Below the pieces are notes generated by a model. It ran no database searches. It worked only from the letters and a program-made list of their open reading frames with translations, and was not told the DNA's origin. This document shows, piece after piece, positions 9,503 through 63,665 of a stretch of 64,000 nucleotides of DNA. The stretch comes from Moniliella sp. 'wahieum' (Eukaryota), in NCBI GenBank assembly GCA_003971905.1, contig RSEE01000010.1, forward strand, positions 1-64,000, in the 5' to 3' direction. A program made the position numbers and the translations under genes. Position 1 is the first letter of the stretch, and each line of letters begins with the position of its first letter.

Positions 9503-9716
9503 TGTAAGACCAGAGGAACCAAGGGATTGGGAAGAACCTCTGGAAATGTAGAGCAATGCAATCGCGATGGTGGTGGTTCAGGTCTAAGCCTTGTGCCACA
9601 CCTAGAGACAGGGGTTCAGACAAGCCTGAGTATACACGTGGAGGCTTCGGAGGACAAATCAGGGGTGAAGGGTGATGAGGCGCCTTGGCCTAAGTACGGG
9701 ACCACGGGTCCCAACA
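9503..9716 (-). repeat. 3' LTR (214 bp)
   Basis: TGTAAGACC...GGTCCCAACA; matches the other LTR except for 3 missing bases. Confidence 0.97.
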
Positions 9717-9723
9717 CCCCCCC
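9717..9723 (-). other. Polypurine tract of the copia element
   Basis: G7 on the minus strand immediately before the 3' LTR. Confidence 0.8.
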
Positions 9724-9781
9724 GGGCCAAGGGAACGAAAGAAGCCCGTTGGCCATCAACAAAAGAAAAGTAGAAAGGGGA

Positions 9782-12700
9782 TCAGCGCGAAGAAAGAGCC
9801 AAATCGAAATTGTTACGCGCAGAAATGATCTTGGGAAGAGAAAGAGGTTTGGTGAACCAGTCAGGGAGATGGTGTGCACCTGGAGTGTAGTGGACTTTAA
9901 TTTCGCCTCGGTGGATGCGTTCCCGCACCTCGTGGTACGAGACGTCAATCTCCCGTATTTTGCCTAGGCTGCCGAGCTTTTCGGCCAACGCTTTGGCGGT
10001 GTTGTCAACAAAGAGCTCAATCGGGTGATTAGCCTTGCAGACACCAAGTTCAAACAGTATGTTGCGAATGAATAGAGCATCTCGAAGGCCATCTCCCATG
10101 GCTAGGTATTCAGATGCTGCTGTGTTGCTCACACCTTGATTTTGGGACTTGGAGCCCCAGGATACAGGCACACCGAAAACAAAAACAACATGGCCCGAAA
10201 CGGAGTGAGAGTTGCTCTTGTCTGATGCAAAGGAGGCATCGGTGTGCAGCTCGAGTAGAGGGCGAGATCGGTTGGGTGTGAGGCACAAAGAGTAGTCAGA
10301 CGTACCGGCGAAGAAACGTAATAGGTCCTCCGCTGCGCGTCGGTGGGCGGCGGACGGGTCGTCCATAAACCGCGCTAAAAAGGTAGCCGCAAAGAGGGCA
10401 TCAGGCCGGGACATACGAGCCGCCCACAAGCTGGATCCGACAATAGAACGGTAGGCACGGTGCTCGTCTCGAGTGGCACGCTTTTCGTGTTCGGGTCGCT
10501 TGGGAGGCGGAAGTTGGTGGCCGATTGGAAGGTAGCGGGGCCGGTGAGGTGATATGTCATGCGCGGCAAGCGTCTCAGCGATGAATTTGGGTTGGCTGAT
10601 GTACAGTCGTCCATCGATACGGTCGTATTGGCAGCCGAGATGGAAACGTAGGGGGCCGTTGGACTTAATTTGGATGCTGCGCCTTAATTCCACTAAGAAT
10701 TCATCATACGCTTCTTGGGACCGACACGCGACCAAAAAGTCGTCAGTGTGGACGGCGATTAGGATCAGGCCAAGAGGTTCGGTGCGACGTATGAACAGGC
10801 AAGGCTCTGATTTTAGGCTAGTGAAGTGGAGTCGGTCGCAAAGGAAAGTGCGGAGCCAATCTCCAAAGTTGGCCCCGCTCTGGTGCAGGCCATAGAGACT
10901 TTTCTTGAGTCTCCAGCAATGACCGGGCGCTTCTGGGAAGAAGGGGGGTGGTCGAACATAGACGAGCTCGTTGATATCGGCATAGAGGTAGGCAGCTTCC
11001 ACATCGGCAGAAAATAAGTGGAGGCCATCAGCTTCGGCCAACGCAATTAGCGTGTTGACGGCAGCAGTACGAACGGCAGGAGCAAAAGATTTCGCCCATG
11101 TGCCAGGAACTTGCCGGTGCCCTCCCACAACGTAGCGGGCACGGTACTTGAGGAAGTTAGCATCCGCATCCGTCTTAGTACCTATGACCCACATGCCGGG
11201 AAGGGGTTTGATCCCTGGGGGGATGGGTACAACTTCCTTCACGTCACGCTCGTCAAAACGCCGAAGCTCGAGGCGCATTGCCTCGAGTACGCCATCAAAG
11301 GCAGGGTGACCCACCAACTTCTTGATGTTCTTGGGGGCCACCGGGACCCCATCGGTGGTCAGTATGACCTCGGTGTCACTTGCCGCGGATTCGATTGCGA
11401 GTGCGATGGGGGGCGAGCTTGGCTCCGAAGCAGGTAGCATGGATGTGTCCGGCGCTGGTCCGAAAATACTCACCAAAGCCTGCATTCCTAGGGCGGAGAG
11501 GGCGGCCGGGTTGCCAAAGATGCTAGGGGCCTTGTTGACGAGCAGGGAAAAGGTGCCATCGCGCAAATTGTCGTTGGCTGGAATGGACAGGTCGAGGGGT
11601 GGAGCGTTGATACGCGCTTGGCGAACGGGATTGCGACGCACGAGTGCGGGGACGGCTGTATCGGTCAGGGGCACGGTCACGGGGGCGAGCGTGTCGGTGG
11701 GGGAGAGAGGGGAGGGGGATAGGGCGGGAGAGGAAGGGGAAGTGGAAGAGGGAGGGGAAAGCAGGACTTGGTGGCCAGTGTCAACGGCATCTTCTGTGAT
11801 AGTTTCATTTTCTTCGGCTTGCTTTGCCTGGCGTTGTGCCATGCCTGCGGGGTCAGATGCAACAGGTTGGGGGATACATGTGGGGGGTTGGAGTTGGTGG
11901 GAGTGGGGCCAGGCTCTGAATTCTCATTTTCGTTGGCTTGAGCCGGGCGATGTGCCTCTGTTTTTCGTTCTTTTAATTTTCTTTTTCCATGGGGGGCATT
12001 GTCTTTCTTACCATTAGTATCGCGGGTCAGTTCATCTATCGCAAAACGCACACGCCGGGGTGGGGAGCTGTCTGACTTCCCACCAGCACCCATTTCTCCG
12101 CCCCCCGCACCTCTCCGCCACCAGCAGGGACAAGGGGGTCCAGATGAAAGTGCGTGGGATATTCGGTGGTGTACGGGACATGTCCAGGTGGACGGCTTTT
12201 TCCAACGGAATCCAACTTGGCCGTCGTCCTGGTGGATGGCAAAGAGCCACCCCTTCGAACCGCGGGCCGTGCCCGTAACCCACCAACATTGCTGGGACGG
12301 CCCGCGGACCAAGTTTGCCGCCCTCGCGTTGGTTGGGCAATAGGTGCAGGTAGGCAAGAGTGCCAAAACCGCGCATGCGAAGGGAGGGTTTGAAGCCATG
12401 GTACCGGACAAATCGGCTGTCCCCACCCAGTGCTTTCGGCGGCGACTGGTTGTGTGCATATGTGGCCGCCAACAAGCTGTGTTCCCACCACTCGTCGGGA
12501 GTCAATCTGTTGGCGATTACCATGAGTCGAGCGCGATCCGTAATCGATCTTATGGCGCGTTCGGCGACCCCATTGGACGCACTTTCGCCAGGATTGGTGC
12601 GCTCGCTCTCTCCCAGCTCGCAGTAAAACTCGTCCATTGCGGTGGTGAGTTCAGGCGCATTGTCAGAGCGGACCGTCTGAAGGGGGCGGTCGGGATGTTG

Positions 12701-13525
12701 GCGATGCTCGCGCCGGATGAAGGCTTGAAGTTCGGCTGTGGCATCACCCTTGGACACCAGGGGTAGCGTCCAGGTATACCGCGTAAAGTCGTCGACAATG
12801 ATAAGGGCGTAAGTATGACCCCGCCGCCTTGGCGGGATATGTCAAGGACGTCGAGGTGGAGGAGAGAGAAAGGGCGAATGGTTCGGATTGGGCGTCCAGT
12901 CGTGGCGTGGGGTGGGGCAGTGGCTCTGCTTAATGCGCATGGTGCACAGTGCCACGAGGACCGGACTAAAGCGATGTCGCCACTGTTGACCCGTTCGAAT
13001 GCTGGGTCATCCGACGTGAGGGATGAAAGTTGATCTAGAGGTGCATGATTCCATCGGATGTGGGCGTTTTTCACCTTGCCAGGGTTGCATCAAGGTTGAG
13101 TAGCGAAGTGGCGCTGTTGGCTGTGGCTGTCGTATTGGGCGCCAGAGTAAGGGAATAGCTTGAGTCGGCGGCGAGACGAAAAGGTTCGCCGTGTCGTCCG
13201 AGATAGAGACCATGGCCCCTGGAGGGATCCAGCTGCCAATGCCTGCGACAGATAGATGGTAAGCGCTGAGCAGGTTGGTCGGGAAGGTGGGGCAGTACAA
13301 GCTGCCGGGTAGGTGGATGCGGATAGGGGCTCCGTTCTGGGTTTGAATGTACATAGAGATGGTGCCAATGCCTTCAGTGTATGCGATCTGTCCGTTTGCC
13401 ACTGCTATGGGCTCGCGGTGTGGACGAAGATTGATAAACGCACTTCGTTCATTGAATACGGATGGTCTCGCACCTGAATCGTGTTGCGCAGGGAGGTTGG
13501 CTGGCTTAGGGCCTCCCGCGCTGTC
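9782..13525 (-). CDS. pol: Copia pol polyprotein (protease, integrase, RT, RNase H), frameshifted in this assembly
   Basis: PR QHDSGA (~13470); integrase HIRWNH...CAPC, LHLDVLD, RSDNAPEL, SNGVAERAIRSI; RT YRARYVVGGHRQ, ADVEAAYL, LKKSLYGLHQS, HTDDFL; RNase H HTDASFA, SEYLAM, FVDN, PDWFTKPL. Confidence 0.95.
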
Positions 13526-15069
13526 CTAGTAGGGGTGAGGAGGGATTGTGGACACGACAGACTCCGTTTCAGTCGATGTGGCTGACTCGGGTGGTGTAGT
13601 GGCTGCCATAGGGGTTACTGCATGGGCAGATGAGGTGGTCTGGGCTGTCGTAGCCGGCCGGCTAAAGTGGCCGCCACGTTGGCCACCACGGTGACTTCCT
13701 CTGTACCCGCTGCCCCTCGGCCTCGTCCGCGGCCTGTCACCGTACTGCTTGTTTGGCTGTGCGACGTGGTTCCGAAGGGGCCGTACTGGAGGGAGCTGGG
13801 CTTGAACTGGAGGTACTGCCGTAGTTGGAGCCTTTGAGTTCGCTCACTGCTCGGCGCAATTCGGCGTAGCTGCTGTTACGATGGAGGTGCAACCACCCCT
13901 GATCAGTAACGCCTTTCCGTAGCATCTGTGCTAGACCAATCTCGTCCAGCTTGGACTTGGACGTCATCTCGTACTGGGTTACCGCCACAGTGAACTCATT
14001 CAGGTATTGGCGGCCCTTGGTGCCCATTTTGAGAGTGAGAACCTTTATGAGGATATCACAGATCTCAGTGTCTGAAACGGTGCCGTACAAATCACGCAGA
14101 GCATGATAGTATGCAGACCCTAGAGCCCGTGCCATCGCCGGTGATCTGCTGGACGACGTCGGAGTCTATCCACGGGAGTAGAATGTTGGCCAAGTGAGCG
14201 TCCAGTTCAGCGTTATACCCGTCCAGGGCCTTGCCCTGTTCCAGATGCTCACGCGCTCCAGGGATAATCTGGATACGAGGGAGGAAGATCCGGGTCCATA
14301 ACCAAAACGAGCTGTTGTTGTGGAAACGCTCGTGGTACGGCACGTTGGTGCGAGTGGCACTACGGAGGAGCTTGTCGGGAGTCAAAGCCCACGGGTTGTC
14401 GTCGACGGCCGGAGTTGACGATGAGGGACCTTCGTTCTTGCTAGCATTGGGTGGATTCTCACATGATAACATGACAATGGCTTCTGTGGTCGTCTTTTCG
14501 CTGTACCCAAGCTTGATACCAGTGTCCTGTAGCTGTTTGAGGGTGATGTGTTCGGGAAACAATTTGAACATGTTGCGAATGCGGTCGGCGAGGGTGGCGA
14601 CGTCGTTCGCGGTGTTGTCGGGGCCCACGGGGGTGGGTTGAGGTGTAGGGGTAGATTCACGCGATGGTGTCAGCGGCGGGGAGGCGTGGTCAACTCCGAC
14701 GGGAGTGGTGCTCTCTTCTGCGGCGGCAGTTGGTGAAGTAGGGGTTGAGGAGTTGAACCAAGACTCCTGAGTCTGAGAGCTCATGATGCTTGCCATTAGC
14801 TTACGCAGTTCGAGCAAGCGCTTGTGGATAGGGCCGGCAGCGGAGGCATCGTTGCGGTAGCGGAGTAGTAACTTGGTGAGGGAGTCCATGTGGTTGTTGC
14901 ACACGGTGAGCTGGGCCATGTATTCGGAGTTCGGATCTCTCTGGGTGGGAGTGGCATTGCGAAGCAGAATGTTGTAGACTTGCTGGTAATCCGACAGCAG
15001 TTGGGCGGCAGCGTCGGCGTTGGGCGCTGCTGCGCCCACAGGGGGGAGGTAGGTGTTGACCCAAGACAT
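13526..15069 (-). CDS. gag: Copia gag protein (frameshifted), ending at an in-frame UAG
   Basis: ORFs 14092-15069 and 13737-14135 plus an RGG-rich and S/T-rich tail ending ...IPPHPY-UAG at 13526-13528. It lies directly after the 5' LTR. Confidence 0.8.
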
Positions 15070-15146
15070 GGGTGGGTGGAAGATTGGAAGAGTGGAAGAG
15101 TGTAAGAGTGGAAGGCTCAGGGCTGAGCGTCAAGAGGATGTAACTC

Positions 15147-15363
15147 TGTAAGACCAGAGGAACCCAAGGGATTGGGTGAAGAACCTCTGGAAATGTAGAG
15201 CAATGCAATCGCGATGGTGGTGGTTCAGGTCTAAGCCTTGTGCCACACCTAGAGACAGGGGTTCAGACAAGCCTGAGTATACACGTGGAGGCTTCGGAGG
15301 ACAAATCAGGGGTGAAGGGTGATGAGGCGCCTTGGCCTAAGTACGGGACCACGGGTCCCAACA
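15147..15363 (-). repeat. 5' LTR (217 bp)
   Basis: TGTAAGACC...GGTCCCAACA followed by TSD CCAGC. Confidence 0.97.
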
Positions 15364-22698: not shown

Positions 22699-24126
22699 CG
22701 GTGCTTATTCGACCAACGGTATACCCTCCTCGTTCTGGCATTGTTCCCGCTTACCTTTCCTGCATGATCCCCGTATTTGACCATTTTCTTCATGCCTCGA
22801 TACCAGCTTACTTGGTTCCACCTACCTCTTTCATCTCTCTCTTCGCATCAGTTGGCCCGGCTATACTCTTCTGTCTGGTTGCTTTCATCTCACCTTTTCG
22901 TTCTGCCCTTCAGGCCGCTGCTTACCGAAACCGCTTACCTCTTCCCCCCACCCTATTTTGTGTCTCTTTGATCGCCATGTTCATGGCGTCGTATCGCACC
23001 GTCGGCACATGAACCGCGGGCAGGCGCACCCGATGCATACCTGACATATATATGTCCTCATTGGGATCGACCAGGAGGGAGGCTAGGAGAGGGGAGGTGT
23101 TGGCCTTGGATCGATCGGTAGATTCCAGATTTCGGTGCAGCGAGGATAGGGATCCGCGTCCTCTCAAGCAAGTTTTCTGGGCCGATGATGATGTGCATCC
23201 TTGGGAGGCAGAGCCCTCTGGTCGAGTTCTACGTCGACTGAGGCCGGCAGCATGGCGCGGCAGACACGTTGCCCCAACGGCAACGGGCCGCTAGCTGGTG
23301 GGGTCGGACAATGGGAAGAGATGAGTGTAGCAGTAAAATCAGGTTGGGGAAGCTGGCCCCAAATTGCTTTTCCTGGTGGTGTGGGTCATGCTGGCTAATG
23401 CCATGCAGAACAGACATGCAAGCGCAATCGTCTACTCCCATATGATACAAGCGAACTCGGTTACCAACAGTACTACTTATCCGCCAGTGGGAACAGCTGA
23501 GAACGATCGACTTGGCCGCCGGACCACTCCTCACAGGCGCCTCGGGCGTGCTCATCGATCGCATCATGCGTGGTGCCGAGCGCGCGGGGCTGTGCAAGCG
23601 GCGGGGGCTAGCGTGGGGCGGCTGTGGCCTGCTGGGACGCGGTGGGCGCGGTGGATGTGACGGGGCGGTGACGGGCGCGGATGGTTTGACGGGCGCAGAG
23701 GTCGACCAAGAGGCTGGGAGGCGCGTGATCAACGTGATTTGCAATGTGTGGGTTGGACTGCTCTCGCCTGCTCTGGCTGCCCCCCTGCCGAGCGTAGCCA
23801 GCCATATGGCGTCCGCCGAGCAGGCTCCATCCGGCATCGATTCGATCAGGACACGCTGGCCATCACCCGGTCACTTGTGCCCGCCATGTGGCTCCGCCGG
23901 TAAGCGGCCACATCACCTCGGCCTGTGCGCTCCTCGGCTCGTGCTGGCGGCCGCCGGCACCAGCCACGCGCTCCCCACATCACCGTCCTCGCTGTCTCCC
24001 GCCCTCTCCCCCAATGCGCACCCGCAGCAACCGGAACGCGTAGCCTCCGAGCCTTCTTCTCTCCTCTCCTCCCCTCCTCCTCCTCCTCCTTCTCCTCCGC
24101 CATTCCCCGCCACTGCCGCCGCGGCC

Positions 24127-25278
24127 ATGGGCTGCCTCCCCGTGCGTCCCTCGTCACTGCCTGCTGAGTTCGTCGCTGCCCCCGCTGACCCCCCCCCCCC
24201 CTCTCAGTCCTCACTCGATGTCCATGCAGCCGAGGCCCAAGCGCACAGCGATGCAAGAGATGCCCACCTCAGGCAACACTCCCCCGCCGAGCGCCCCGCC
24301 ATCAAGATCCTCTTGCTTGGCAGCGGCGACAGCGGCAAGTCCACCCTCGTCAGTCAGATCCGCCTCATCCATCGTGGGCCCTTTAGTCTGCACGAACGTC
24401 AGCTGTACAAAGAAGTCATCTTTTCGAACACTGTCCAGAGCATGGTGGCCATCGTGGATGCGATGCGGGCCCTCAACATCTCCCCTGCCACACCCCATGC
24501 CATCCGTGCTGCCGAATTCGTTTCCAGTATCAGCAAACGGATCGAGGCGCCTATTCTTCCGACCGGTATGGCGCAGGCCATCGCTGTCCTCTGGTCCGAC
24601 CCTGGGGTACAAGCCACCATTAGTCGCTCACGCGAGTTCCACCTAAGTGACTCGGCGCCGTATTACTTTGACGCTATTGGCCGCATCGGGGCAGAGGGAT
24701 ATATTCCGACGGACCAAGACGTGCTCCGCTCTCGTGTACAAACCACCGGGATCATGGAGGAGACGTTCAATCGACAATACCACGTACCGCATTGTCGACG
24801 TGGGTGGACAGCGATCCGAGCGGCGCAAGTGGATCCACTGCTTCGAAGCTGTCTCTGCCCTCTTCTTCCTTGCCGCCCTGTCGGAGTACGACCAAGCGCT
24901 GTACGAGGACGTCAAAGTGAACCGGATGCAAGAAGCCTTGACGCTCTTTGGGGCGATCTGCAACTCCCGCTGGCTGGAGCACTTCATCATCCTCTTCCTC
25001 AACAAACCGATCTGTTTCGGGCCAAGTTGCCCGTCGCACCCCCCAACGCTACTTTGACGACTATGTGCCGCTCCCAGTGTGGCGGTCTCGTCCGATGCCT
25101 CCTTCACTCATGCTTGCAACTTTTTCGCCACCAAATTCACCGCTCTGAATCGGTACGAAAACAGGACGATCCACACCTATTACACCTGCGCCACCGACAC
25201 CAACCAAATCACCCTGTGTTTCAATCGGTGCGAGATAGCATTACACGGGCCAGTTTGCAGCAAGTGGGTCTGCTTTGA
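24127..25278 (+). CDS. Heterotrimeric G-protein alpha subunit (frameshifted in assembly)
   Basis: N-terminal MGC; KILLLGSGDSGKST; DVLRSRVQTTGI; DVGGQRSERRKWIHCF; FLNK; TCATDT; C-terminal QVGLL*. Confidence 0.95.
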   Translation: MGCLPVRPSSLPAEFVAAPADPPPPSQSSLDVHAAEAQAHSDARDAHLRQHSPAERPAIKILLLGSGDSGKSTLVSQIRLIHRGPFSLHERQLYKEVIFSNTVQSMVAIVDAMRALNISPATPHAIRAAEFVSSISKRIEAPILPTGMAQAIAVLWSDPGVQATISRSREFHLSDSAPYYFDAIGRIGAEGYIPTDQDVLRSRVQTTGIMEETFNRQYHVPHCRRGWTAIRAAQVDPLLRSCLCPLLPCRPVGVRPSAVRGRQSEPDARSLDALWGDLQLPLAGALHHPLPQQTDLFRAKLPVAPPNATLTTMCRSQCGGLVRCLLHSCLQLFRHQIHRSESVRKQDDPHLLHLRHRHQPNHPVFQSVRDSITRASLQQVGLL

Positions 25279-35604: not shown

Positions 35605-38339
35605 ATGGCTGTCGCTGCGATCCACGTGGCTGCCGGCGTCACCGCCGCCACACAGGAATACACACCTGGCGTTGCCCCCATCCGCCCTGAGTATGTCCTG
35701 GCTATGCCTGCGCGTGGCCGCCGTGCGGAGGACGAGGCCAGTGCCCAGGTTGCGGGCGAGCCGACGCGTGATGCCACTGCCAAGAACGATGCAAGGCCGA
35801 TGGCAGGAGCGACGACAAGGGCAATGGCGATGCCGATGCCGATGGTGATTCCCGTGATGCCGGACCCACTGGTACATCTGACGGCGAGCCCGATGCGAAG
35901 AAGCCCAAGTTGAAAGGTGCGGCGCGCAAGCGGGCCAAGAGGGAGGAGAATGCGGGCGGCGGGCGCAGCAAAAGCAAAACCAAAAGCAAAGCCAAAACCA
36001 AACTCGAGGACAGAACAAGAACCGCAAGTTTGGCTCGAGGCGAGACCAAAGGGAACGGACTGTGCGACTCGATGATCCGGGCCGCGGCTGTGTCGGGGGA
36101 TAACGTGTTGGATCCGCGCCGGTGTGCCCGGGGTGGACCTCCGCCGCAAGGCGGGTGTTGGCACGAACACGATCCTTTGGTGTACCTGGCGTCCAAGGCG
36201 AAAGATATTGATTTCCCCCCGCCTCCGCCTGCTTTGCCCTTGCCTGTGGGGCAAGGTGCTGAGGCTGGGTCGGCGCATCCTCGGGATATGCACCTTCTTC
36301 GCCCGATTGGCACGTCGACGCCGGCCTCGGGCCTGGCGCCTGCGGCACAGGCGTACCTCGATGCCCACTACCAAACCACCGCACCGTTTGTGCGGTGTGA
36401 CAACACGTCTCCCCCCACCGCGCTTGCGGGTAGCCAAGACGAGACAAAGGAGAGTGAGGAGTCTCGGCGTGAGCAGGATGTAAGCCAGTCGTTGCGGCCG
36501 GGCACGTACTGTCCTCCGTACGACGAACACGGTTCGTGCCAAGCTGGATGGCGGTGCCGACTGATGGGTGCGCATGCGCATCGGATTGATGAGGGCGAAT
36601 CGACGCCCGCGGGCAGCAGTAGCAGTACCACCACCCGAGTTGGTCCGCTTGAATTGGAGGAGTACCGGTGCCCAAGGACGAGAAGGACGAAGCGCATGTC
36701 TCGGCACGTCGCGCTTTGCCCTGAACGAGTTCAATTGGGTCCCACAAGATGTGATGAAAGCGTTGCGCAAAAAGGAGTACCCTTTGCCTTACACCTCGGT
36801 GCTCTTCGCAAATTGGCCGAGCTGCCCGTCGGAAACAAGACCAAATCACCGTCACTCCGACGAAGCTCGCGCCGAGTTCCCCCTGGTGCTTAAGCGGGTG
36901 CGGGAACAACGAGCCAAAGCTCAGCACCGCTCAAACCAAGGGCAAACGTAAACGTGCCGGCACCGGCACCGGCACCGGCACCGGTGCCGGATCCGTCCAC
37001 TGGCGAAGTGGATTGGGATGCTGGAGAACGAAGGGGCTGCGGTGAGCGTGCCGGCTCCGGCTCCGGCGCCCGTGGACGAGCCTACGCCCACGCCCGGATC
37101 AGAACCCAGCGTTGTGCAAGAAGAGCAAGACGAGCTTCATTTGCTCTATGACTATCTTCCGTTGACCTCGCCCGTCCGCGCTCGTGTGAGAAGAAGAGCG
37201 ATTGGATTGGCATGGGGACCTGTACTTGGCCCCACTCACCACCGTGGGCAACTTACCGTTCCGCCGCTTGTGCACTATTTGGCGTGGACATAACCTGTGG
37301 CGAGATGGGGCTGGCGGAATCGTACTGTCTGGGCAATCCTTCGGAATGGTCGTTGGTGCGTCGATGGGAAGGCGAGAGGACGTTTGGTGCGCAACTGTGT
37401 GGGTCGCGACAGGACCAATTGGTGCCGGTCGCGAGGCACTGTACAATGAGTGCGGACCGCAACAGTTGGACTTTGTCGATCTCAACTGTGGCTGTCCATT
37501 GACTTGGTCTGCAAACCGAGGTGGTGGCAGTGCGCTCATGGACCACATTGGTCGGCTCGGCACCATTGTCAAGGGCATGAATGCCGTTCTGGGCGAGATC
37601 CCCGTCACGGTCAAAGTGCGGACGGGAACGACGGGCAACCGGACCCAGACCGCTCACAATCTCTTGCCCCGCTTGCCGCTCGAGTTTGGCGCTGGAGCAG
37701 TGACGCTGCATGGGCGGTCGAAGCAGCAACGGTACAAGTCCATGGCCGACTGGTCGTACATTGCGCAGTGTGCTCGTGGGGTGCGCGCGGCGGTGCGTCG
37801 GGCCAATGAGGAAGCGAGCGAAGCCGATGCGCCCGAAATGGCGCCTGTGCCCGTGTACGGTAATGGCGACGTGTACAGTTTTGAGGATACGATGCGCACA
37901 TGTCCTTGGGCGAATTGGACGGATGCATGATTGGTCGTGGTGGGCTGATCAAGCCGTGGCTGTTTACGGAGATCAAGGAGCACCGCGATTGGGACATTTC
38001 GTCTCGCGAGCGCCTCGACACGGTCCGTCAGTTTTGCCAACGGCTTGGCCCATTGGGGGGCCGACACGCATGGCGTCCAGCTCACGCGTCGGTTCTTGTG
38101 TGAAGCCATGAGTTTCTGGCACCGCTATGTCCGCTTGGTCTGCTCGAGTACCTGCCTCCCCGTCTCAACGACCGGCCGCCCACGTTCCAAGGCCGCGACG
38201 AACTGGAGACGCTGTTGGCTTCGCCCAACGCCGCGGACTGGGTCAGGTGTCGGACATGTTTTTGGGACCGGCGCCGGCAGAGTGGCATTTTGTGCCCAAG
38301 CACAAGTCCAATTCGTACGACCAAGAGGCTCAAGGGTAA
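35605..38339 (+). CDS. DUS3: tRNA-dihydrouridine(47) synthase Dus3 (frameshifted in assembly)
   Basis: [12 protein letters not shown]-like fingers; [77 protein letters not shown]. Confidence 0.95.
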
Positions 38340-51730: not shown

Positions 51731-54700
51731 ATGGCTGATGTCGATGATGCCGATTGGTGATATCGATCATCGAGCCTCGATTATCATGCCCACTCACCCA
51801 CACCCACTCTTGAGTCCTCTGGCAAATCCAGTTGCCACCGCAATCCTCTTTTTATCTCACTGACCCCCTCTCTCTCCTCTGCCTCCCGTGCCTTACCCCA
51901 CCCGCACCGCCGCTCAGCCGCACCCGCACCGCCCTCAAGCGCAAGGCCGACGTGCCCGCCCCCGCCTCGGGCGCCCCAAGCCCGCAAGCCCCGCACCGCC
52001 CCCGCCGCCACCTCGTCCCGTGCTGAGCCCTTGGCCGCCCCCTACAGCCTCCGCTCCCGCGCCTCTGCCGGCTCGTCCTCCTCCTCCCCCTCCTCCTCTC
52101 GGGCCCTGCTCCCCGGCCGCCTCGCCCTCCAGACCGCCCACCGGCCTAAGCTCCGCGCACGCGCCCTCCCCTCGTCCGTCTGGCTCCGGTCGCCGTACCA
52201 CTCGCTTGGCCGCCAAGGCCAAAGCCCCCTCGGCCCCACGTCGTAGCCAGCGTCATCACCGTCCCGCCTCCCCTGCTGCTCATTCGCAACTCGATCCCCC
52301 CGCCCCGCCTGCGCTGGAGGACATACAGACAGATCCACCTCCTGCTGCTACTCCGGAGGCTCCTGTTGCTGCTAATACCATGCTACATTACTACTACCGC
52401 TACTGCTACCGCTACTGCTACTGCTATGCTTCTTCATCGGGATCGACTGCCTCTTACCACTACGCCTGCCTCAGCCTCCCAGATTGACGGTGCGAGGGAG
52501 CCCTCTCCCTCGGTGGCTGTCCCTGCTTCCAGAGCACCCTTGTTCCCCCACGGACGTTCAGCCCGACGAGGGCGATGCGGATCTGTTGATGGACGATGAC
52601 TGGACGGCGAAGAGGCGAAGAGAGTAGTTTCATGGGCGGAGAAGAAGACGATGAGGACGAAGACGAGTACTATGGAGACGAGCAGGAGGACGACGAAACG
52701 CTAGGCTTTAATCTACGTGCGATGGGGTTTTTTCACCAAATCACCACAGCCGGTTCAAGGTTCTGCTCGAAAACATTCGGCCCACTGTGCTCCGGCGGAG
52801 CAGTTGAGTGCGCTCGAGGAGCTGGCCAACTTGCTCAGCAGTCAGGAGGAGACGCTGATGGGACAATTCAATACCGATGGGTTTGTCCGCGAGTTTGTCC
52901 GTATCCTTGGTGGTACGCCACCGCCCTTGATGCCCATGGCGTATGGACCCGGGCGGACGCCATCCCTTTCCGGTCGTCACACTGCCTGCTCTGCCGGCTG
53001 CGCCCCTATCTCTTCCCAGCTCGGTATCGGTCACCGAGGATCCAACGCGGTACGAGCGCCAAATCTTGGCGTGTCGGTGCCTGGCCAAACCTGATGAGGC
53101 CATGCCCTACTCGGCGCGCAGCGTGGTAGACAACAATGGTGTGCCAGCGATGGTGGCCAAGCTGGTGGACATGCAAGTGGTGGATCTGGCAGAGCAGTGT
53201 CTTGAAACCTGGAAAAGATCAGCATTGACAATCCAATCCCATCGTGCGCGAGGGGGGCTTGATGGCCATCCTTTCCTACCTCGACTTTTTCAACATCCAT
53301 GTCCAACGTACCGCCATGACTACCGTTGCCAACTGTTGCCGCAAGCTCAAGAGACCAAACGTCTCTTGTTCGCGATACCATCCCGCTCATCGCGACCATT
53401 GTGTTGCATTCCGATCGCAAGCTCCAAGAGGCTGCGTGTCGTTCAGTTGCGCATCATTGAGAGTTACCGTCATGCACCGGCAATGCTAGAACAGCTGGTC
53501 ACCTGCCGCCTGTGTGCCGCCATCCAGACCGTACTTGCCCCGCCCGCAGCCGTGTCCGAGGCGGACGAGAACACGTTGACGACGACCATTCCCACGTCGA
53601 TGGTCACCGAGCTGATGCATGCATTTTGTCTCGCTGCCAGCGCCACATCTGTCGTGGCCAACCGGCTGATGGCATCCAACTTTAGCCAAGCCATCTACGC
53701 CATTCTTACTGGCTGCTCGGCGCCAGTTGACCAGCTTGCCACCCGCTCTACCGAGCCCGATCCGACGTCCGTCGACCCAGAGCGCGCAGGCCTCAACAAG
53801 ATGACCCTCTTGCACAACCTGAGTTTGCGACCCAAGGAGCAACTCACAGAAGCGTTGACGTTGACGATCGAACTGCTTCCCGTGCCAGCCAAGGCGGGGG
53901 GTATTTGACGCGTAACTATACTCTGCAGCGCTAGCGCAAGCCGAGTACGACCGGGCCGTTGTCGCCGCCGGTGGTGGTCCCCACCCCTGCCCCTTGTTTG
54001 AGCGCAACAAGGGCCGGTTCGGCACAGGACCGCATGGACCCAGACGCGTACGCGATGGGGCTGGTCTGTGTCGACTAATGCTGCCTGCTTTAGTGGAGTC
54101 CATACCGCTTCGGCAGTGCATCGGTACGCAACAAGGTGATTGTAGCGATCTTGAAAATCGTGCGTTGCCAGTCCGGAGCACCTTGCGTGCCTGGTACCGC
54201 GTGCGGCCATGGCCACATTTTGGGCGGGCATCTTAGCCCCCGACGATGGTCGGTAGCCGTGCAAGGATCGTTTGCAGATTGTCGAACTGTTGCTGCTCAA
54301 GTTGGGCGCTGGATACCGCCGCAGACTCGAACGCGAAGGCGTCATGTGGGAAATCGAACAGTTGGCACACCAAGATCCGGCCGCGTACATGCCCGCTGAA
54401 GAGAAGGGGAAAGAGGTCCTACCCACACTGAGTCCAGTGGGATCGATAGCTCGATGGGGTCGATGGGATCGATAGCATCGATGGGGTCGATGGGATCGAT
54501 GGCGTCGATGGCGTCGATGGCGCCGATGGCCACGGTACGGGACGCAGACGGCCGTCAACCTCTTCCACCTTAGGTGGAGGCAACCATGGGCTGAACATTT
54601 TACGAGCGCGGATGATCGTGTTGCTGTATGCGAAGCCCGAGGCGGAGAAGGCGCAGGAGACGGTGCTGGATCGTGCGAGTGGACTGGCACGGCAGCTGCG

Positions 54701-57671
54701 GTCCTCGTCGCTTGGGTCGGGGAACAAGCCCAGAGTGACTTGGAACGTGTTTTGCTTGATGCAGCACGATAGGAGGGGTTGGCGGTTGGGAACTGCTCAA
54801 GTCGGGCTTGATTGAGCGTTGGCTTATCTTCGTGGGCAGTGACCTGTTGAGGAGGAGGAGGCAAAGGAAAGGCACCGGCACAGGCACAGGTCCAAGTGTC
54901 TCCCCTTTCGGTCGAACAGCGGCGTGCCTTGTTTACCCAAACCCTGGCGTCTACCCTCACGCTGCCGAACAGCGGGTCCAGCGGTTGCAAGAAACCGTCA
55001 GTCGCGTACAGAACTTGGCGCGGTCAGCTTGGGTGCGTCGGTGGACGAGTTGACGCGACGGTGGCCCGGGTTGGGGTTGACCAAGCAGATGCGGCTCAAG
55101 CTCAGTGCTGCCGATCCGTCGTTGGTGCCAAGTAGCTACCAGTCGCTGGTGATTGGGATCCATGCCGTCGCCTCCTTTGGTGCGCTGGAAGACTTTCTGC
55201 GTGCGCGTCTGGCCCCGTACCCAGTCCAGTACTCGTCCGGCCCCCCTCGCCCGGGCGTCGGATCAGGGGACACTTGTCAGCAATGTTGGCTGCAACGATG
55301 GGAACGTCCGCCTCCTCCTCTCCTTCTCTTCCTCTTCCCTCCCATCGCACCGCAGGGACGCACCGAGCTGCGACTAGGCCAAGGACGGCTGTTCGGATCG
55401 GCGTTGATGCGGGACGCTCACCTCGACCTTAACGTCTCGCTCGACCCTCAGGCTGCGACAGGACCAGACGCGAGCCACGGGACCGACCCAAGTCAAGCTG
55501 ATCGAACGGGTGAGATCCACCTGCCCAAGTCGAGGGCGGGTGGGAGTGACGAGCATGATCATGATCATGATCCCGTTCACGAGCACGATAACGAGCACGA
55601 CCACGATCGACGCCCTAGTAGTTCCACCGTGCCCTCCCACCCAACCTCTTCTCCCTCTGGCAGGAGCAACAATACCCATCCCAACTCGAGGTTGGATCTT
55701 CCCTCCGCACCGTCGCGCCTGCGTCGGACCAAGACCATTTTGTCTTTACGGTCAATGGAAGGGAGGTGGGCTTGGAGGAAACGGTGTTTAGCGCCGTGTA
55801 TCGGATGATGAAGGAGCAAACGCCTACTTGGACGCCCGACCGCTCGTTTTGGAGCTTGTCATACCCCGTTACTTACCGTCGGGTTCGAGGGCCTCGCCCG
55901 GACAAACCCGATGCGGAAACAGGTTCGTGTGGGTGGCCCATTCCCTTGTGTGGACGGAGACGCTGACCTTACCCTCGTCTGTGTTGTTTTTGAATTCGGT
56001 AGTGAGCAACAAGCAGGACCCAGTGGACGCGGTGCCCCCGACTCCATCATGTCCAAAGCGCTGAGGCTGTTACAAGTCTTGTTTGATGCATTTGTCCAGA
56101 CCCGTCCGCCTGCACTGGCCGGGGAGGAGAATGGGTTCCGGTCGCTCTTTGTCAACAACAAGTTGACGGCACAGTTGAATCGACAGTTGGAAGAACCGTT
56201 GATCACGGCGAGCCAAGTCTTGCCCGCATGGGCTGAGCAGCTACCTCGTTCCTTCCCCTTTCTCTTCCCCTTTGCCACGCGCTTTGCCTTTTTGCAATCC
56301 GTCGCGTTTGGCACGACGCGCATTGTGGCGCGGTGGCAAGCGCAGCTGCGCAGTAGCGGCGATCCTTCCACCTTGCATCGTGCGCGGGACGAGTCGTTTG
56401 GTAACTTGGGCCGTGTGGCGCGCCAAAAAGTTCGTATTGAACGAGAACATTTGATGGAATCGGTGGTGCGCATCTGCACCGAATTTGCCTCGCGCAACTC
56501 GGTATTGGAAACAGAGTACTTTGGCGAAGGGTACCGGACTCGGTCCAACCCTCGAATTTTACTCGCTCGCCTCACACGAGTTTGCCGCCAAACAGCATCA
56601 TCTCTGGTTAGGCTCGCGTACGTCGGAGCATGGTGGTCCAGTCAACGCGGCGGCCAATCCCGCGCCCGGGCGGAGCCAGGACAAGGCCAAGGCCAAAGCC
56701 AAGGCGCCGCAGGATCCTACCCCCCATACCTCGGAGAAGGAAGAAGAAGACGCAACGGGCTATGGCTATGTGGATGCGCCGCAGGGCTTGTTCCCTCTGC
56801 CACTGCCGCTGCCGCTCAAGCCTGCCAAACCAAGGTCGGCCAGCGAGAAGAAGCGGGTGAGCATGTTCCGTACGTTGGGCACGTTTGTGGCCAAGTCGTT
56901 GCTCGACTCGCGCATCATCCATATTGATTTGTCGCCTATCTTTTGGGCGTTGGTGATTGGTGCGCCGGTCGCGGCTACGCTGGCCACGCTCAGTCGAATT
57001 GACCAGACCTTAGCAGGGTCGCTGGAGAAGCTGTACGGCATGTCGGCCGAGGAGGTGGAGTCGCTAGAACTGGACTTCACTCTTCCGGGGACGAGGGGTA
57101 CGAGCTGGTAAGTGGGGGAAAGAGCAAGGCGGTCACGCAGGCCAATTTGGACGAGTATGTGGCGCAGATTGAAGAGGCGTATCTTGGACAGGGCACCGCC
57201 GCTTTGGTCGATGCGTTCCGACAAGGGTTTGCCACGCTGGTGGATTGGCGTGCGCTACGACTGTTTACCCCGGACGAACTGGGCAGTGTGTTTGGCAATG
57301 CGCCTGAAGACTGGTCACGGTCCACGTTGACGTGCTACATCAAGCCCGACCATGGCTTTACCACTGAGAGCGCGGCATACCAGAACTTATTGAGCTTGAT
57401 GAGTTCCCTGGACGCGGGGGAACGACGTGTGTTCCTCCAATGGCTCACGGGTTCACCCAAGTTACCCTTGGGCGGGTTCCGCGCGCTCCATCCGGCCTTG
57501 ACCGTTGTTCGCCGTCCACATGAAGCTCCACTCACACCAGACGATTACTTGCCCTCGGTCATGACGTGCGTCAATTACCTCAAGTTGCCCAATTACTCCA
57601 CGGCCGAAATCTTGCAGCTGCGCATGCGCAAGGCCATGCACGAAGGCGCCGCTTCGTTTCACCTGTCGTGA
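51731..57671 (+). CDS. UFD4: HECT E3 ubiquitin ligase Ufd4/TRIP12-like (frameshifted; probable first intron ~51757-51917)
   Basis: QLSALEELANLL; ILACRCLA; DLAEQCL; GGLMAILSYLDFFNIHVQRTA; FVNNKLTAQLNRQLEEP; RQKVRIER; GTGLGPTLEFY; LPSVMTCVNYLKLP; SFHLS*. Confidence 0.95.
54440..54530 (+). repeat. 9-bp TCGATGG-core coding minisatellite inside UFD4
   Basis: TCGATGGGG/TCGATGGGA/TCGATAGCA/TCGATGGCG units, which would encode SMG/SIA/SMA repeats. Confidence 0.8.
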
Positions 57672-58855: not shown

Positions 58856-59420
58856 ATGGTCTCGAGCAGCCGCCGTACCAACCGCAAGATTCAGCTGAGC
58901 GCCCCGGCGCACCTGCGCCGCAAGCTGATGAGCTCCCCGTTGAGCAAGGAGCTCCGGGCTGAGCACGGCGTACGTTCATTCCCCCCCGACATGCCCTTTC
59001 CTCGGCGGGACAGACAGAATCCGAGGGAACGGTCACCTTAGGTTCCCTCTTTGGCTGGGACGCCTTGTCTTGTTCCCCCAACGCCCATTCCGGGCGGTTG
59101 TTTGCGCTGAAACTGACTTGACTGTTGCTTGGCAGATCCGCTCCATGCCCATTGTCAAGGGCGACGAGGTTCAGATTGTCCGTGGCTCCAAGAAGGGTGC
59201 CGAGGGACGCGTGACCCAGGTGTACCGCAAGAAGTGGGTTATCCACGTTGACCGTGTAGAGCGGGAGAAGGCGAAGGAGCAGACGGTCCCCATCCCCGTT
59301 GCGGCGTCGAACGTGGTGATCACCAAGCTCAAGCTCGACAAGAGCCGCAAGGTGATCATTGCGCGCAAGTCGGGCAAGCCCGTGGCCGATGCCGAGGGCG
59401 ACGTTGAGATGAAGGCGTAA
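58856..59420 (+). CDS. RPL26: 60S ribosomal protein L26 (uL24); intron 58970-59135
   Basis: VSSSRR...[39 protein letters not shown]...[17 protein letters not shown]...[12 protein letters not shown]. Confidence 0.96.
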
Positions 59421-60029
59421 TGCCGATCGGACTCGACTTGAGAAGCTTGACCTTGTACCCCCTCTTGTCTTGGTCTCGGTCTCGAGCGGGAAGTGGGGCA
59501 GTGGGGTGCGCAGCTCTTCCGCTCTTCTTTCCTGTCCTGTGTCGCTCGTCTCGTTGAGCGGACGGTGAAGCCCGACGCCACCCTCCATTCGCTGTACCCT
59601 CTCTCGCTGTCACGCGTGCCTCCCTGGCAGGTGCTGTGACGCCAAAATGACTGTGGCCTCTGCCTGTGGTGGAGCAGGGACCGCAATTGCGCGCGTGGGC
59701 GCGCAGCGGCTGTGTTGCTCATTCTTCTGGCCAGAGTCGGCCATGCATGGGCCGAGCAGCAGGGCTGCTGTTCATGCAATCTGATGAATCGCTCACCGAA
59801 CCAACAGCCATACTGGTTGGGCACGGCTGTGTCTGTCATAGAGGTGGGGCGGGGTGATGCGATGGCCGCCTGGTATACTGCTCCCTGCGGCGGCCGTAGG
59901 CAGGCAGACCAATGCGGGCCAAAGGAATGCTCGAGGCAGGGATGTGTGCCCCATGTCGCATTAACCGTGGCGCATTGTGCTCGGTTGCAAGGTGAACCCA
60001 ATGTGGGCGTCGTGCGTGTGGCAAAAAAA

Positions 60030-60114: not shown

Positions 60115-60329
60115 TGCATGCCGTGGACGGCCACGGTAGGCAGAACACAAGCGCCAAGGCATTGGTGCCATTTAACGGGATGAAATATCAGCTGCGCCAT
60201 TCTTCCAAGCGGTGCACTCTGCCTGTATCCACCTCCCCATCTATCCACGCATCCATCCGTCTCGCCGCGCCTCCCCCACCTTGCGATGGCCGTGCCGTGC
60301 CATGCCCGCTGCTGGGCACGCTCCCGGTC

Positions 60330-63300
60330 ATGGCGGCGCCCACTCTGCGTCCGCTCCTACACAGCCGCCGCCGCGCCGCCCGCCCGTCCACCCTGCGCCT
60401 CCTCAACACCGACAAGCGCGATGCGCTGCGTGCGCTCGAGCACGCCGCCCAGCAGCGCTGGGAGCGCGAGCGCCTCTTCCAAGTGGATGCCCCCCCCCCG
60501 GCGCTGCGGACGACAAGGGAAAGTGGTTTGGCACCGCCCCCTACCCTTACATGAACGGCCGTCTGCACCTCGGCCACGCCTTCAGCTACAGCAAAGTCGA
60601 GTTTGCTGCTGGCTTTCAGCGTCTGCTGGGCAAGACGACTCTGTTCCCCTTTGGCTTTCACGCCACCGGCATGCCCATCCCTGCCGCTGCCGACCGGCTC
60701 AAGCACGAACTTGCGTCCTCGTCCGATACTTCCGCCTCTGACGCCGCGCCCGCCCAGGGCGCAATGACCCAGACTCGCATCCTCGAAGGCATGGGCATCC
60801 CAGCGTCCGAGATTCCTCGCTTTGCCGATGCGCGCCATTGGCTCACGTACTTCCCGCCCCTGGCTGAGCTTGACCTACGCCAGCTCGGGTGTCGGATCGA
60901 TTGGCGCAGATCCTTCCTTACAACGGATGCCAACCCGTACTACGACAGTTTTGTCCGCTGGCAGTTCAACCGTCTGCGTGCGCGGGGCCGCATCCAGTTT
61001 GGGGCGCGCTACACCGTGTGGAGCGCGCGCGACGGGGGCGCCTGCCTTGATCATGATCGGTCCGTGGGGGAAGGGTTGGGGGTGACAGAGTACACTGCCA
61101 TCCGTCTACCACTGCTTGCGTGGCGCGCATCAGCCCCTACCCAGGTCCAGCACTTGGACCGGCCCGTTGTGCTCGTCGCTGCCACTCTTCGGCCCGAGAC
61201 AATGTACGGACAGACCAATGTCTTTGTTGGCCCTGAGATTGAGTATGGCTTGTACCAGGTCAAGGACGAGCTGGTGGTTGCGACCGACGCTGCGATGCGC
61301 AATATGGCTTTCCAAGGCCTGACGGGGCTCGAGCGCGGACAAATGCCTCCCATGGTAACACGCGTGCGTGGAGCCGACTTGGTGGGCGCTGTGGTGGAAG
61401 CTCCGTTGAGCGTGCATGGCAAGGTGCACGTCTTGCCCATGGATTCGGTGCGTGCCGACATGGGAACGGGCATCGTCACCTCGGTTCCTAGTGACGCTCC
61501 GACCGACTGGGCTCAACTCTTGCACCTTCGTGCTAAGCCCGAGCACTATGGTATTGACCCTTGCTGGGCCCAGCTGGATCCTGTCGATGTAGTGCATACC
61601 CCCTCGTATGGCACACGGACTGCCGCGCTTCTGGTGGAGAAACTCAAGATCAACTCGCCCCGCGATGTGCACCTGCTGGAAGAAGCCAAAGATTTGGCGT
61701 ACACCGAAGGCTTCCATAAGGGTACCTTGGCCGTTGGTCCCTACAAGGGTATGCCAGTCCCCGACGCACGCCCGTTGATCAAGGAAGAACTTGTCCAAGC
61801 CGGCCAAGCTTTCCCCTATGCCGATCTGGAAGGCACGATTGTCAGTCGAAGTGGGGATGTGTGTGGCGGCGCTGGTGGACCAATGGTTCCTTGACTATGG
61901 CGCCGAGGACTGGAAAGCCAAAGCCCGTCTGGCACTGGACCAAATGCAAACGTACGCGGCGGATACACATGCTGGGTTTGTGCATACGATCGACTGGTTG
62001 CGCGAGTGGGCGTGTGCACGCTCGTATGGCCTCGGTACCCTCCTCCCCTGGGACAAGCGGTATCTGATCGAGTCCTTGTCGGATAGCACGATCTACATGG
62101 CCTACTACACGGTCGCCTACCTCTTGCAGGGGCACACGCTTGCGGGCCATGGGTCGGGGCGAGAAGGAGAGGCACCGGGTCCCCTTGGTATTCGCCCGGA
62201 AGACATGACGGACCAAGTGTGGGAGTACATCTTTGCCGACGGTCCTGTTCCCGAGGGGAAAATCTCCGTGGAGGCACTGGACCGCCTCCGAAGCGAGTTC
62301 CGCTACTGGTACCCTGTTGATCTCCGGAGCAGCGGCAAGGATCTGATTGGCAACCACATGACCTTCAGCCTCTTTACGCATGCCGAGATGTTCCCGCCGT
62401 CTCAATGGCCGAAAGGAATGCGGGCCAATGGCCACCTCCTGTTGAACGGAGAAAAGATGTCCAAGTCCAAAGGAAATGCACTGACGCTGGGACAAGGGGT
62501 GGAAAAGTTTGGTGCGGATGCTATGCGCCTTGCTCTTGCTGACGCCGGGGACGGCATTGACGATGCCAACTTTGAAGAGCAACAAGCCAATGCCAACATT
62601 CTGCGTCTGCACACGTTGATGGAATGGGCCACGGCGAGCACGGCCGGCCAAGGGGCCGGGATGAGGCAAAGCCGTCTCACGCCCCCGTTGGAGCGCGAGG
62701 CTGCATTCTGGGACGAATGTTTCCAAGCCGAGATGGATTTATTGACCACGCTAGCCCACCAGGCATACACCGACTGCCTGTACCAGCAGGCCAACAAGGC
62801 GGCGTGGTATGGGATGCTCGGCGCGCGGGATGCGTACCGCGATGCGGTGACGGGGGCAGGAGAGCAGGCTGGACCAGGTATGCGAGCCGACTTGGTTCAC
62901 GCCTGGATTGCCCGCTTGGCCATTGTGGCTTCGCCCATCATCCCTCATCTGGCCGAACACCTCTGGAGTGACGTTCTGGCGCGCCCGACCAGTATCCAGC
63001 AGGCTCGCTGGCCCTTGGTGCCTCTCCATGGGCCCGAGGCTGCGCATCGACGAGCCGTGCTGGCCCGGCTCTCCTTTGTCCGTGCGGTGACGCGCCAGGC
63101 TCGTCTGCTCTTTACCAGTCCTATGAAAGAACGTCTGGGCCTCGACCTGTCCCAGCCGACGGAGCTGGTGGTGCTCTACGCGGCCGAAGTCCCCAGGTGG
63201 CAACGGTCGGTAGTGAGTGTTCTTGGCAAGCACGTCACGGCCCAGGGCACCTTGGACGCAGCGGCGGCTAAAAAAGACTTAGGTCGCCAGGGCTTGCTAC

Positions 63301-63665
63301 GGGATAAGCGGGTTCATGCGTTCCTTACTCAACTTCAGGTATGTCCTTGTCGCTTTTGCCTTTTCGCATTTTTCTTAGGCGCAGCTAACACGACACCAGA
63401 CCACCGTCGCAACGTACGGGCCCGACGTACTGCACGAGGTGGAGGAAGGAAAAAATACGCTCGATGAAGGTACAACGCTCGAGACGGTGCGTGCCTACTT
63501 GATGCGCCAGCTGTCGGTCGCCCGCGTTCGTCTGCTGCCAGTAAAAGACGACCGTGTTTGTCCCGAGGACGGGGAGCGGTAGATGCTACGATCGAGGCGC
63601 AGAGCAAGCGCGCACTCCCCAGTCAGCCAGTAGTGATCGTGCAACATCTAACCAAAACCAAATGA
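60330..63665 (+). CDS. CDC60: Leucyl-tRNA synthetase, eukaryotic cytosolic type; intron 63339-63399 (frameshifted in assembly)
   Basis: YPYMNGRLHLGH; FHATGMPI; DWRRSFLTTDANPYYDSFVRWQ; ATLRPETMYGQTN; IESLSDSTIYMAYYT; DLRSSGKDLI; KMSKS. Confidence 0.95.

What the first reader, a model, noticed from the sequence alone, without database searches (positions are those of the whole stretch)
13486..13528. Candidate gag-pol stop-codon readthrough signal in the copia element
Seen on the minus strand: ...CCC UAC UAG GAC AGC GCG GGA GGC CCU... The gag tail (IPPHPY*) is in frame with the protease (DSAGGPKPANLPAQHDSGA), separated by a single UAG. Directly after it, GCGCGGGAGG pairs with CCUCCC(U)GCGC around a 15-nt loop, and the GGGAGG core starts 8 nt after the stop. 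Known: MuLV (UAG) and the Candida albicans copia element Tca2 (UGA) express pol by readthrough of an in-frame stop followed by RNA structure, whereas most copia elements use a single ORF or a frameshift. Errors elsewhere in this window are indels, so a stop exactly at the gag/pol boundary is unlikely to be one of them.
Basis: partly seen in the sequence, partly recalled or inferred. Interest (0 to 1): 0.75.

Follow-up and report, generated by a model that had tools for sequence, protein, structure and literature searches.

The report
Copia lineage with conserved UAG stop
In a smut-related fungus, this jumping gene and ten distantly related families keep a UAG stop between their coat gene and enzyme genes, often followed by an RNA hairpin, which probably lets a few ribosomes read on; the layout is known, but the mechanism is not shown here.

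Summary
Confirmed. A young copia LTR element (window 9503-15363, minus strand) has an in-frame UAG (13526-13528), 16 codons before the protease D-S-G, then a 10-bp hairpin (-17.9 kcal/mol). The stop is inherited. It is in 6 copies of this family, 55 of 55 pattern hits of family B, 20 of 20 of family C, and all 11 families whose junction I could read (8 directly in frame, 3 inferred; 33-78% RT identity). All 11 read UAG-G; 6 have AA before it. The hairpin shows no compensatory change and is absent in families B, C, I and H. There is no pseudoknot. Tca2's junction gave no readthrough when tested (PMC2194720). Best reading: programmed UAG readthrough (about 0.7), untested. Known copia cases found use UGA. 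The scan already noted this layout on other pieces of this genome.

The parts
15147..15363 (-). 5' LTR (TG...CA); the 5-bp target-site duplication GCTGG flanks the element
   Evidence: 188-nt core 100% identical to the 3' LTR
15125..15146 (-). Primer-binding site complementary to the anticodon arm and D-arm of the host's spliced tRNA-Tyr(GUA) (half-tRNA priming, inferred)
   Evidence: PBS list; 28 intron-bearing tRNA-Tyr genes; this copy lacks one base that sister copies have
13529..15069 (-). gag ORF (ATG at 15069), split into three pieces by small indels in this assembly; no Pfam match, no zinc knuckle, RGG-rich tail
   Evidence: sister copy L117 is open for 516 codons from ATG to the TAG; the same position holds a CCHC knuckle ORF in families F and G
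13526..13528 (-). In-frame UAG ending gag; context UAC-UAG-GAC
   Evidence: conserved in 11 of 11 readable families
13522..13525 (-). 4-nt spacer (8 nt to the GGGAGG core)
13486..13521 (-). Predicted hairpin: 5' arm 13521-13512, 15-nt loop, 3' arm 13496-13486 with one bulged U; codes the N-terminus of the protease
13244..13480 (-). Aspartic protease barrel (PF22936); catalytic D-S-G at codon 16 after the stop; first in-frame AUG at codon 58
12032..13089 (-). Integrase region (HHCC, rve PF00665, SH3 PF25597), broken by indels in this assembly
9782..11923 (-). Reverse transcriptase (PF07727, 10523-11242) and RNase H; ends at TGA
9717..9728 (-). G-rich tract before the 3' LTR (putative polypurine tract)
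9503..9716 (-). 3' LTR

Best explanation
Programmed stop-codon readthrough sets the Gag:Gag-Pol ratio. Shown: one transcription unit holds gag and pol in one frame, separated by a UAG that a whole copia lineage of this Ustilaginomycotina fungus has kept, always as UAG-G. Inferred: most ribosomes stop and release Gag, and a few insert an amino acid from a near-cognate tRNA (Gln CUG or Tyr GUA) and make Gag-Pol. Inferred: the signal has two parts, a linear context (often AA before the stop; G-R-n-n-n-C-G-S-G after it) and, in families A, D, F and G, a GC-rich hairpin starting 4-9 nt downstream. In this element the hairpin is the 13521-13486 stem. Copies that lost the stop are derived, make only a fused or truncated product, and probably borrow Gag from UAG copies.
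For: UAG in 6 family-A copies, 55 of 55 family-B and 20 of 20 family-C pattern hits with the codon left open. All 50 family-B protease hits checked keep it. It is present in 11 of 11 readable families down to 33-38% RT-RNase H identity, and nine of these form one clade with support 98/93 or fall with it by junction. Long open frames lie on both sides in one frame: B 552 codons from ATG, then 1146; C 410, then 1202; F 644 with a zinc knuckle. Context: +1 G in 11 of 11, +6 C 9, +7 G 9, +9 G 10, AA before the stop 6 of 11 against 5% of codons. GAA CTC GSG is identical in B, C, I, D, E. AA before a stop is cited as readthrough-promoting in yeast (10.1101/2022.12.06.519325). The hairpin beats synonymous resampling in A1 (p 0.035), A2 (0.005-0.11), D (0.01), F (0.005), G (0.015), and 8-10 pairs are kept in most of 17 clade-A junctions. 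In 9 of 11 families no in-frame AUG lies before the catalytic D-S-G, or the order could not be read (B and E have one). No copy with TGG, or with a cut ending at this AG, was seen.
Against: No RNA, ribosome or peptide data. The largest family (B) and C, I, H have no significant local fold (p 0.27-0.97) and no distal partner above controls. There is no H-type pseudoknot here and no compensatory pair change. Synonymous conservation of the arms is only suggestive (3 of 4 versus 11 of 37 codons). UAGGAC and UAGGAA are not among the listed type III hexamers (PMC13517186). The similar-looking Tca2 junction failed a reporter test. In family A, 23 of 29 copies lack the stop. The context statistics treat related families as independent, so their p-values are too small. 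Five families rest on one copy each, in an indel-rich assembly.
Confidence: 0.7

Rival explanations
1. The AG of TAG is a 3' splice acceptor: a minor spliced RNA removes the gag stop and fuses gag to pol.
For: YAG|G fits an acceptor. A pyrimidine-rich tract precedes it in clade A, C and D (0.71-0.94), and CTGAC lies 3 nt upstream in B and C. Splicing regulates Gag in other copia elements (PMC5580714 abstract), and the Tca2 authors considered it.
Against: No tract in B, E, F, G, I, J (0.41-0.53). In D a CAG abuts the TAG, and in some A2 copies a CAG lies 6 nt before it, so the first AG would leave the stop in. AA before the TAG is atypical of acceptors. The one host intron read has its branch motif about 14-19 nt from the AG. 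None of the junction deletions seen in families A and D ends at this AG, although spliced RNA could be copied back into DNA.
Confidence: 0.09
2. Pol is made separately, from a weak internal promoter, reinitiation or a non-AUG start near the junction; the hairpin serves initiation or packaging.
For: The Tca2 junction has a minor promoter (PMC2194720). Families B and E have an AUG before the catalytic D.
Against: In A, C, D, F and I the first in-frame AUG lies after the catalytic D-S-G or beyond 100 codons. It does not explain why the frame is kept and the codon is always UAG-G.
Confidence: 0.09
3. The UAG is a tight stop. UAG copies supply Gag and stop-less copies supply Gag-Pol in trans (a two-partner system).
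For: Family A has 23 stop-less versus 6 UAG copies. The TCG branch shows purifying selection on pol (pN/pS 0.15-0.17) and a relaxed gag (0.62). Family D also has stop-less copies (3 of 8 read).
Against: Families B and C amplified recently (LTR pairs 98-99.5% alike) with no stop-less copy found. All 12 deletion copies read share a shorter G-run in the integrase and 11 show a frame break there; if real, they cannot supply RT. pol is open for 1139-1202 codons behind the stop in B, C and D.
Confidence: 0.05
4. A host property does the work: an amber suppressor tRNA, a weak eRF1, UAG reassignment, or A-to-I editing of UAG to UGG.
For: All readable copia families of one genome use the same codon, including the weakly joined F/G branch (78/59).
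Against: A pattern that found 28 Gln(CUG) tRNA genes found none with a CUA anticodon. eRF1 has ordinary TASNIKS, YLCDNKF and GGQ motifs. Long pol frames hold no internal TAG, and family D pol ends at TAG. No TGG copy was seen. The shared flanks point to inheritance.
Confidence: 0.05
5. An assembly error or a chance nonsense mutation in a dead copy.
For: The assembly has many indels, and sister copies have sense codons here.
Against: The same codon is found at the same place in more than 90 copies of 11 families. An unnamed relative with 98% RT identity has an unbroken 1210-aa pol called from 9 residues before the D-S-G (P0001).
Confidence: 0.01

Closest known systems
Moloney MuLV gag-pro readthrough cassette (Beier-Grimm type III; PMC13517186)
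   Same: UAG then G; stop downstream of nucleocapsid and upstream of the protease D-T/S-G; a GC-rich structure a few nt downstream that also codes the protease N-terminus. Family D has an exact 8-nt spacer and a 9-bp stem; G and one A2 copy have the MoMLV hexamer UAGGGA.
   Different: Copia, not a retrovirus; a simple or extended hairpin rather than an H-type pseudoknot; hexamer UAGGAC or UAGGAA in most families; spacer not purine-rich; no structure found in four families; no activity measured.
Tca2 (pCal) of Candida albicans, Ty1/copia (PMC2194720)
   Same: Fungal copia with gag and pol in one frame split by one stop; half-tRNA type primer (internal tRNA-Arg in C. albicans LTR families, PMC4139406).
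   Different: UGA with AAAACAGG and a proposed pseudoknot; one element; its junction gave no readthrough in S. cerevisiae. Here UAG-G across 11 families and a tRNA-Tyr PBS. Relationship to Tca2 was not tested.
VdLTRE5 of Verticillium dahliae, Ty1/copia (PMC3441728)
   Same: gag-stop-pol in one frame, called very rare; no CARYYA.
   Different: UGA, two copies, no structure reported in the passages read.
Tj1, Tosmo1-3, Tcry1 of fission yeasts, Ty3/gypsy (PMC4600332; 10.1101/2022.12.06.519325)
   Same: A lineage-wide in-frame stop with a conserved linear context, GAA before the stop; removing the stop abolished Tj1 activity.
   Different: Gypsy; UGA-CU context; no hairpin described in the passages read.
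Drosophila copia and Arabidopsis EVD splicing strategy (PMC5580714)
   Same: Copia elements needing excess Gag.
   Different: They use one ORF and a spliced gag mRNA; here a genomic stop ends gag.

Membership tests
Ty1/copia LTR retrotransposon | Direct LTRs TG...CA with 5-bp target-site duplication | tested here: met
Ty1/copia LTR retrotransposon | Domain order PR-IN-RT-RH with PF07727 RT | tested here: met
Ty1/copia LTR retrotransposon | PBS and polypurine tract | tested here: met
   PBS matches host tRNA-Tyr; G-rich tract before the 3' LTR
In-frame-stop retroelements (Tca2, VdLTRE5, Tj1 layout) | gag and pol in one frame, separated by one inherited stop | tested here: met
In-frame-stop retroelements (Tca2, VdLTRE5, Tj1 layout) | Stop codon is UGA as in the described fungal cases | tested here: not met
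   UAG in 11 of 11 families
Type III (gammaretroviral) readthrough cassette | UAG followed by G | tested here: met
   11 of 11 families
Type III (gammaretroviral) readthrough cassette | Hexamer UAGGGV, UAGGUA or UAGGAU | tested here: not met
   UAGGAC here; met only in F, G, H, J and one A2 copy
Type III (gammaretroviral) readthrough cassette | 8-nt purine-rich spacer | tested here: inconclusive
   GACAGCGC has 5 of 8 purines and its last 4 nt pair in the predicted stem
Type III (gammaretroviral) readthrough cassette | H-type pseudoknot after the spacer | tested here: not met
   0 candidates with two stems of 5 bp or more
Type III (gammaretroviral) readthrough cassette | Downstream RNA structure supported by covariation | tested here: inconclusive
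   stem kept with one-sided changes and register shifts only; significant in A, D, F, G, not in B, C, I, H
Type III (gammaretroviral) readthrough cassette | Measured readthrough of a few percent that depends on the structure | not testable with these tools
   needs reporters, ribosome profiling or peptides
Type I/II readthrough (CARYYA, UGA-C) | CARYYA or UGA-CUA/CGG context | tested here: not met

The most novel reading that the evidence does not exclude
A deep copia lineage of smut-related fungi evolved, independently of retroviruses, a UAG readthrough cassette. Its core is an undescribed linear signal (AA-UAG-GAACUC-G-S-G type) that works alone in some families and with a hairpin in others. 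The lineage repeatedly spawns stop-less, Gag-defective derivatives that outnumber their helpers. In its main clade, the tRNA-Tyr(GUA) that primes reverse transcription could also be the tRNA that reads the UAG (speculative).
Probability: 0.3. Interest if true: 0.75.

Novelty: new variant of a known kind. Interest (0 to 1): 0.55.

Why it matters
How copia elements with an in-frame gag stop make Pol has been open since the Tca2 junction failed a reporter test in 2007. This genome offers a natural panel: 11 junctions with the same codon, some with and some without a hairpin, plus natural stop-less variants. The roles of context and structure can therefore be separated with short reporters. If readthrough is confirmed, it would be convergence with gammaretroviruses on UAG-G and possibly a new linear readthrough signal for fungi. 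It also warns annotators that these elements are not pseudogenes and that gene callers clip their protease.

Tried and rejected
No RNA holder was listed for this stretch. Laying contigs of X1 and X2 confirmed indels elsewhere, but the differences listed (40 of 383) did not include the junction, so it says nothing on the codon. A stop-plus-stem pattern gave 4 metagenome matches, none near a copia protease or RT, and none in viral contigs; a protein scan of viral contigs found no relative. My first suppressor-tRNA pattern was uninformative because its control matched only a tRNA-like gene of another type that ARAGORN did not call; one search replaced it. A 14-nt context pattern is not enriched genome-wide (370 versus 412 control matches). 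No distal pairing partner stood out in 7 families. A Ty1-type +1 shift was rejected: gag and pol share the frame in unbroken copies. The Cys/His-like string in another frame of the gag tail (YDSPDHLICPC) is off the long frame. Six of 20 loci from the RT search (L138, L144, L149-L152) gave no readable gag-protease junction and are left out of the 11-family count; L138 groups away from the clade on a long branch. Gag had no Pfam match and no Atlas result was obtained. Gao et al. 2003, the main survey of gag-pol junctions, was not available and may list UAG copia cases.

Full report
Observation. The finding lies in a 5.86-kb copia LTR retrotransposon on the minus strand (9503-15363). Its LTR cores are identical, it has a GCTGG target-site duplication, and the order is gag-PR-IN-RT-RH. 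The TAG at 13528-13526 closes the gag tail, and the same frame continues into the protease, whose D-S-G is codon 16 after the stop. It is weaker in context (z -0.9 over 106 nt; top 5% of 300 windows, p 0.035 against synonymous resampling). Family letters below are my own labels.

The stop is inherited. A DNA search of the own genome gave 59 matches. Of 29 close copies of family A, 6 have the TAG junction, 18 carry an in-frame 81-nt deletion that removes the stop and the 5' arm, 3 read TCG and 2 read AGG. Two more diverged copies have a TAG one codon upstream. Copy L117 is open for 516 codons from the gag ATG to the TAG. I fetched 40 loci chosen from 150 listed protease hits and 20 chosen from 150 RT hits. 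Every family with a readable junction has a TAG before the protease: A1, A2, B, C, D, E, F and I directly in frame; G, H and J inferred, because an indel lies between the stop and D-S-G in their single copy. Six RT loci had no readable junction and are not counted. Patterns with the codon left open returned TAG in 55 of 55 (B) and 20 of 20 (C), and all 50 B protease hits checked keep it. RT-RNase H identity to family A is 78% (A2), 48-56% (B, C, I) and 33-39% (D, E, F, G, H). An RT tree joins A, B, C, I, D, H and E (98/93) and adds F/G weakly (78/59; long branches meet; outgroups plant and algal; J not included). A wider FastTree puts four unnamed proteins inside this clade and Tilletia copia next to it. 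None of the six unnamed clade members examined holds gag; two start 8-9 residues before the D-S/T-G. The neighbouring P0082 is a single ORF, as are 39 of 59 hits with a protease motif. This hints that the split layout extends beyond G000, but their DNA was not seen.

Anatomy of the signal. One junction per family gives +1 G in 11 of 11, +2 purine 11, +6 C 9, +7 G 9, +9 G 10, and AA before the stop in 6 of 11 against 5% of codons (families are related, so the nominal p near 1e-5 overstates). B, C, I, D and E share GAA CTC GSG letter for letter, although those codons are 46%, 35% and about 20% of their synonyms. Hairpins start 4-9 nt after the stop in A, D (8-nt spacer, 9-bp stem), E and J, and extended stems occur in F and G. 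They pass the synonymous test in A1, two of three A2 copies, D, F and G, but not in B, C, I, H, E or J. In 17 clade-A junctions the stem keeps 8-10 pairs in most copies, with G-C to G-U changes and register shifts but no two-sided change. The constant part is therefore the codon and its flanks; the hairpin is lineage-specific.

Stop-less copies. The 12 of 18 deletion copies read in full also lack about 240 nt that include the gag ATG. Two UAG copies share that 5' deletion, which suggests it came first. The 3 TCG copies lost the gag start by different deletions, and the 2 AGG copies lack RT. In family D, 3 of 8 copies read lost the stop by two different in-frame deletions, one of which removes the hairpin too; these keep the gag ATG. 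Between the TCG and UAG branches, pN/pS is 0.62 in gag and 0.15-0.17 in pol. All 12 deletion copies have a shorter G-run in the integrase near window 12820, against 4 of the 9 others; whether this break is real or a systematic error is unresolved. In Tj1, fusing gag to pol abolished activity (PMC4600332, passages), so these copies most likely depend on UAG copies for Gag (inference).

Mechanism. Shown: the layout, its inheritance, open frames on both sides, and recent amplification of UAG-only families (LTR pairs 98-99.5% alike). Inferred: Pol must be made past the stop, most simply by readthrough (0.7). Splicing is disfavoured by competing CAGs, missing pyrimidine tracts and the lack of intron-less copies. 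Separate initiation is disfavoured because the first AUG follows the catalytic residue in A, C, D, F and I. A host suppressor is disfavoured: 28 Gln(CUG) tRNA genes and no CUA gene matched one pattern (not a full scan), and eRF1 motifs are ordinary. The identity of the inserted residue (Gln or Tyr) rests on general knowledge, not on a call.

Comparison with what is known. What I saw: PMC2194720 abstract, Background and Discussion; PMC13517186 abstract, first part of section 4.1 and passages; passages of 10.1101/2022.12.06.519325, PMC3441728, PMC7175516, PMC4139406, PMC4600332, PMC5009743, PMC6875170 and PMC3248453; abstract of PMC5580714. No supplements were read. In-frame stops are described for copia Tca2 and VdLTRE5 and for gypsy Tj1, Tosmo and Tcry, all UGA; a 2020 review still calls Tca2 pol expression undetermined. 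MuLV uses UAG-G with a pseudoknot, and type III contexts are said to need a downstream structure. Eight literature searches returned no report of a UAG-separated copia lineage or of tRNA-Tyr half-priming. The library lacks most subscription papers and Gao et al. 2003, so this is not proof of novelty. The element works like a type III cassette but fails membership on the hexamer and the pseudoknot; it is a member of copia and of the in-frame-stop layout. The scan noted this layout before on other pieces of the same genome (8 notes shown of 40 fitting) and a UGA case in another genome. These are unchecked notes and are not counted as support.

Verdict. A real, selected feature and a new variant of a known kind. 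The added value is its breadth (11 families), the shared UAG-G context, natural with- and without-hairpin variants and recurrent stop-less derivatives. The mechanism is unproven and the range outside this genome is only hinted at. Interest 0.55.

Noticed in passing
window 15125-15146 (minus); L075, L082, L098, L039: The PBS of families A, B, C and I matches the anticodon arm of the host's spliced tRNA-Tyr(GUA) (14 of 14 nt in family I; 11 nt plus 8 nt of the D-arm side in A). Family D has the half-tRNAi-Met type (motif recalled)..
   Followed up: partly
L121-L132 (G000 copies with the 81-nt deletion): The stop-less, gag-start-less derivative outnumbers UAG copies 18 to 6, and its copies differ by only a few substitutions, so it is a recent burst. 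All 12 read share a shorter G-run in the integrase.
   Followed up: partly
L031, L032: 3.2-kb internally deleted elements with two LTRs, gag, protease and part of integrase but no RT; AGG at the stop position and a weakened stem.
   Followed up: partly
L033, L034: The stop appears moved one codon upstream (GTG TAG GAG GAT against TAC TAG GAC) in two diverged copies.
   Followed up: no
L172, L173 (and L171, L174): eRF1 and Dom34/Pelota each occur in two near-identical copies on different contigs, suggesting a diploid, hybrid or uncollapsed assembly; one eRF1 copy reads NIKSC, the other NIKSR. Element copy counts may include allelic duplicates.
   Followed up: no
window 13529-15069; L075, L082, L098, L039: Gag proteins of families A, B, C and I have no Pfam match and no CCHC knuckle; A and A2 end in RG/G-rich tails. 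F and G have knuckles.
   Followed up: partly
G000 tRNA genes: All 28 Gln(CUG) and 28 Tyr(GUA) matches carry short introns after the anticodon with varied sequences.
   Followed up: no
window 23446-25278, 35772-37930, 52931-57671, 58857-59421, 60176-63467: Host genes recognised by eye from translations (labels recalled, not searched): G-protein alpha subunit, Dus3, HECT ligase, ribosomal protein L26 with one intron, leucyl-tRNA synthetase; several show frameshifts typical of this assembly.
   Followed up: no
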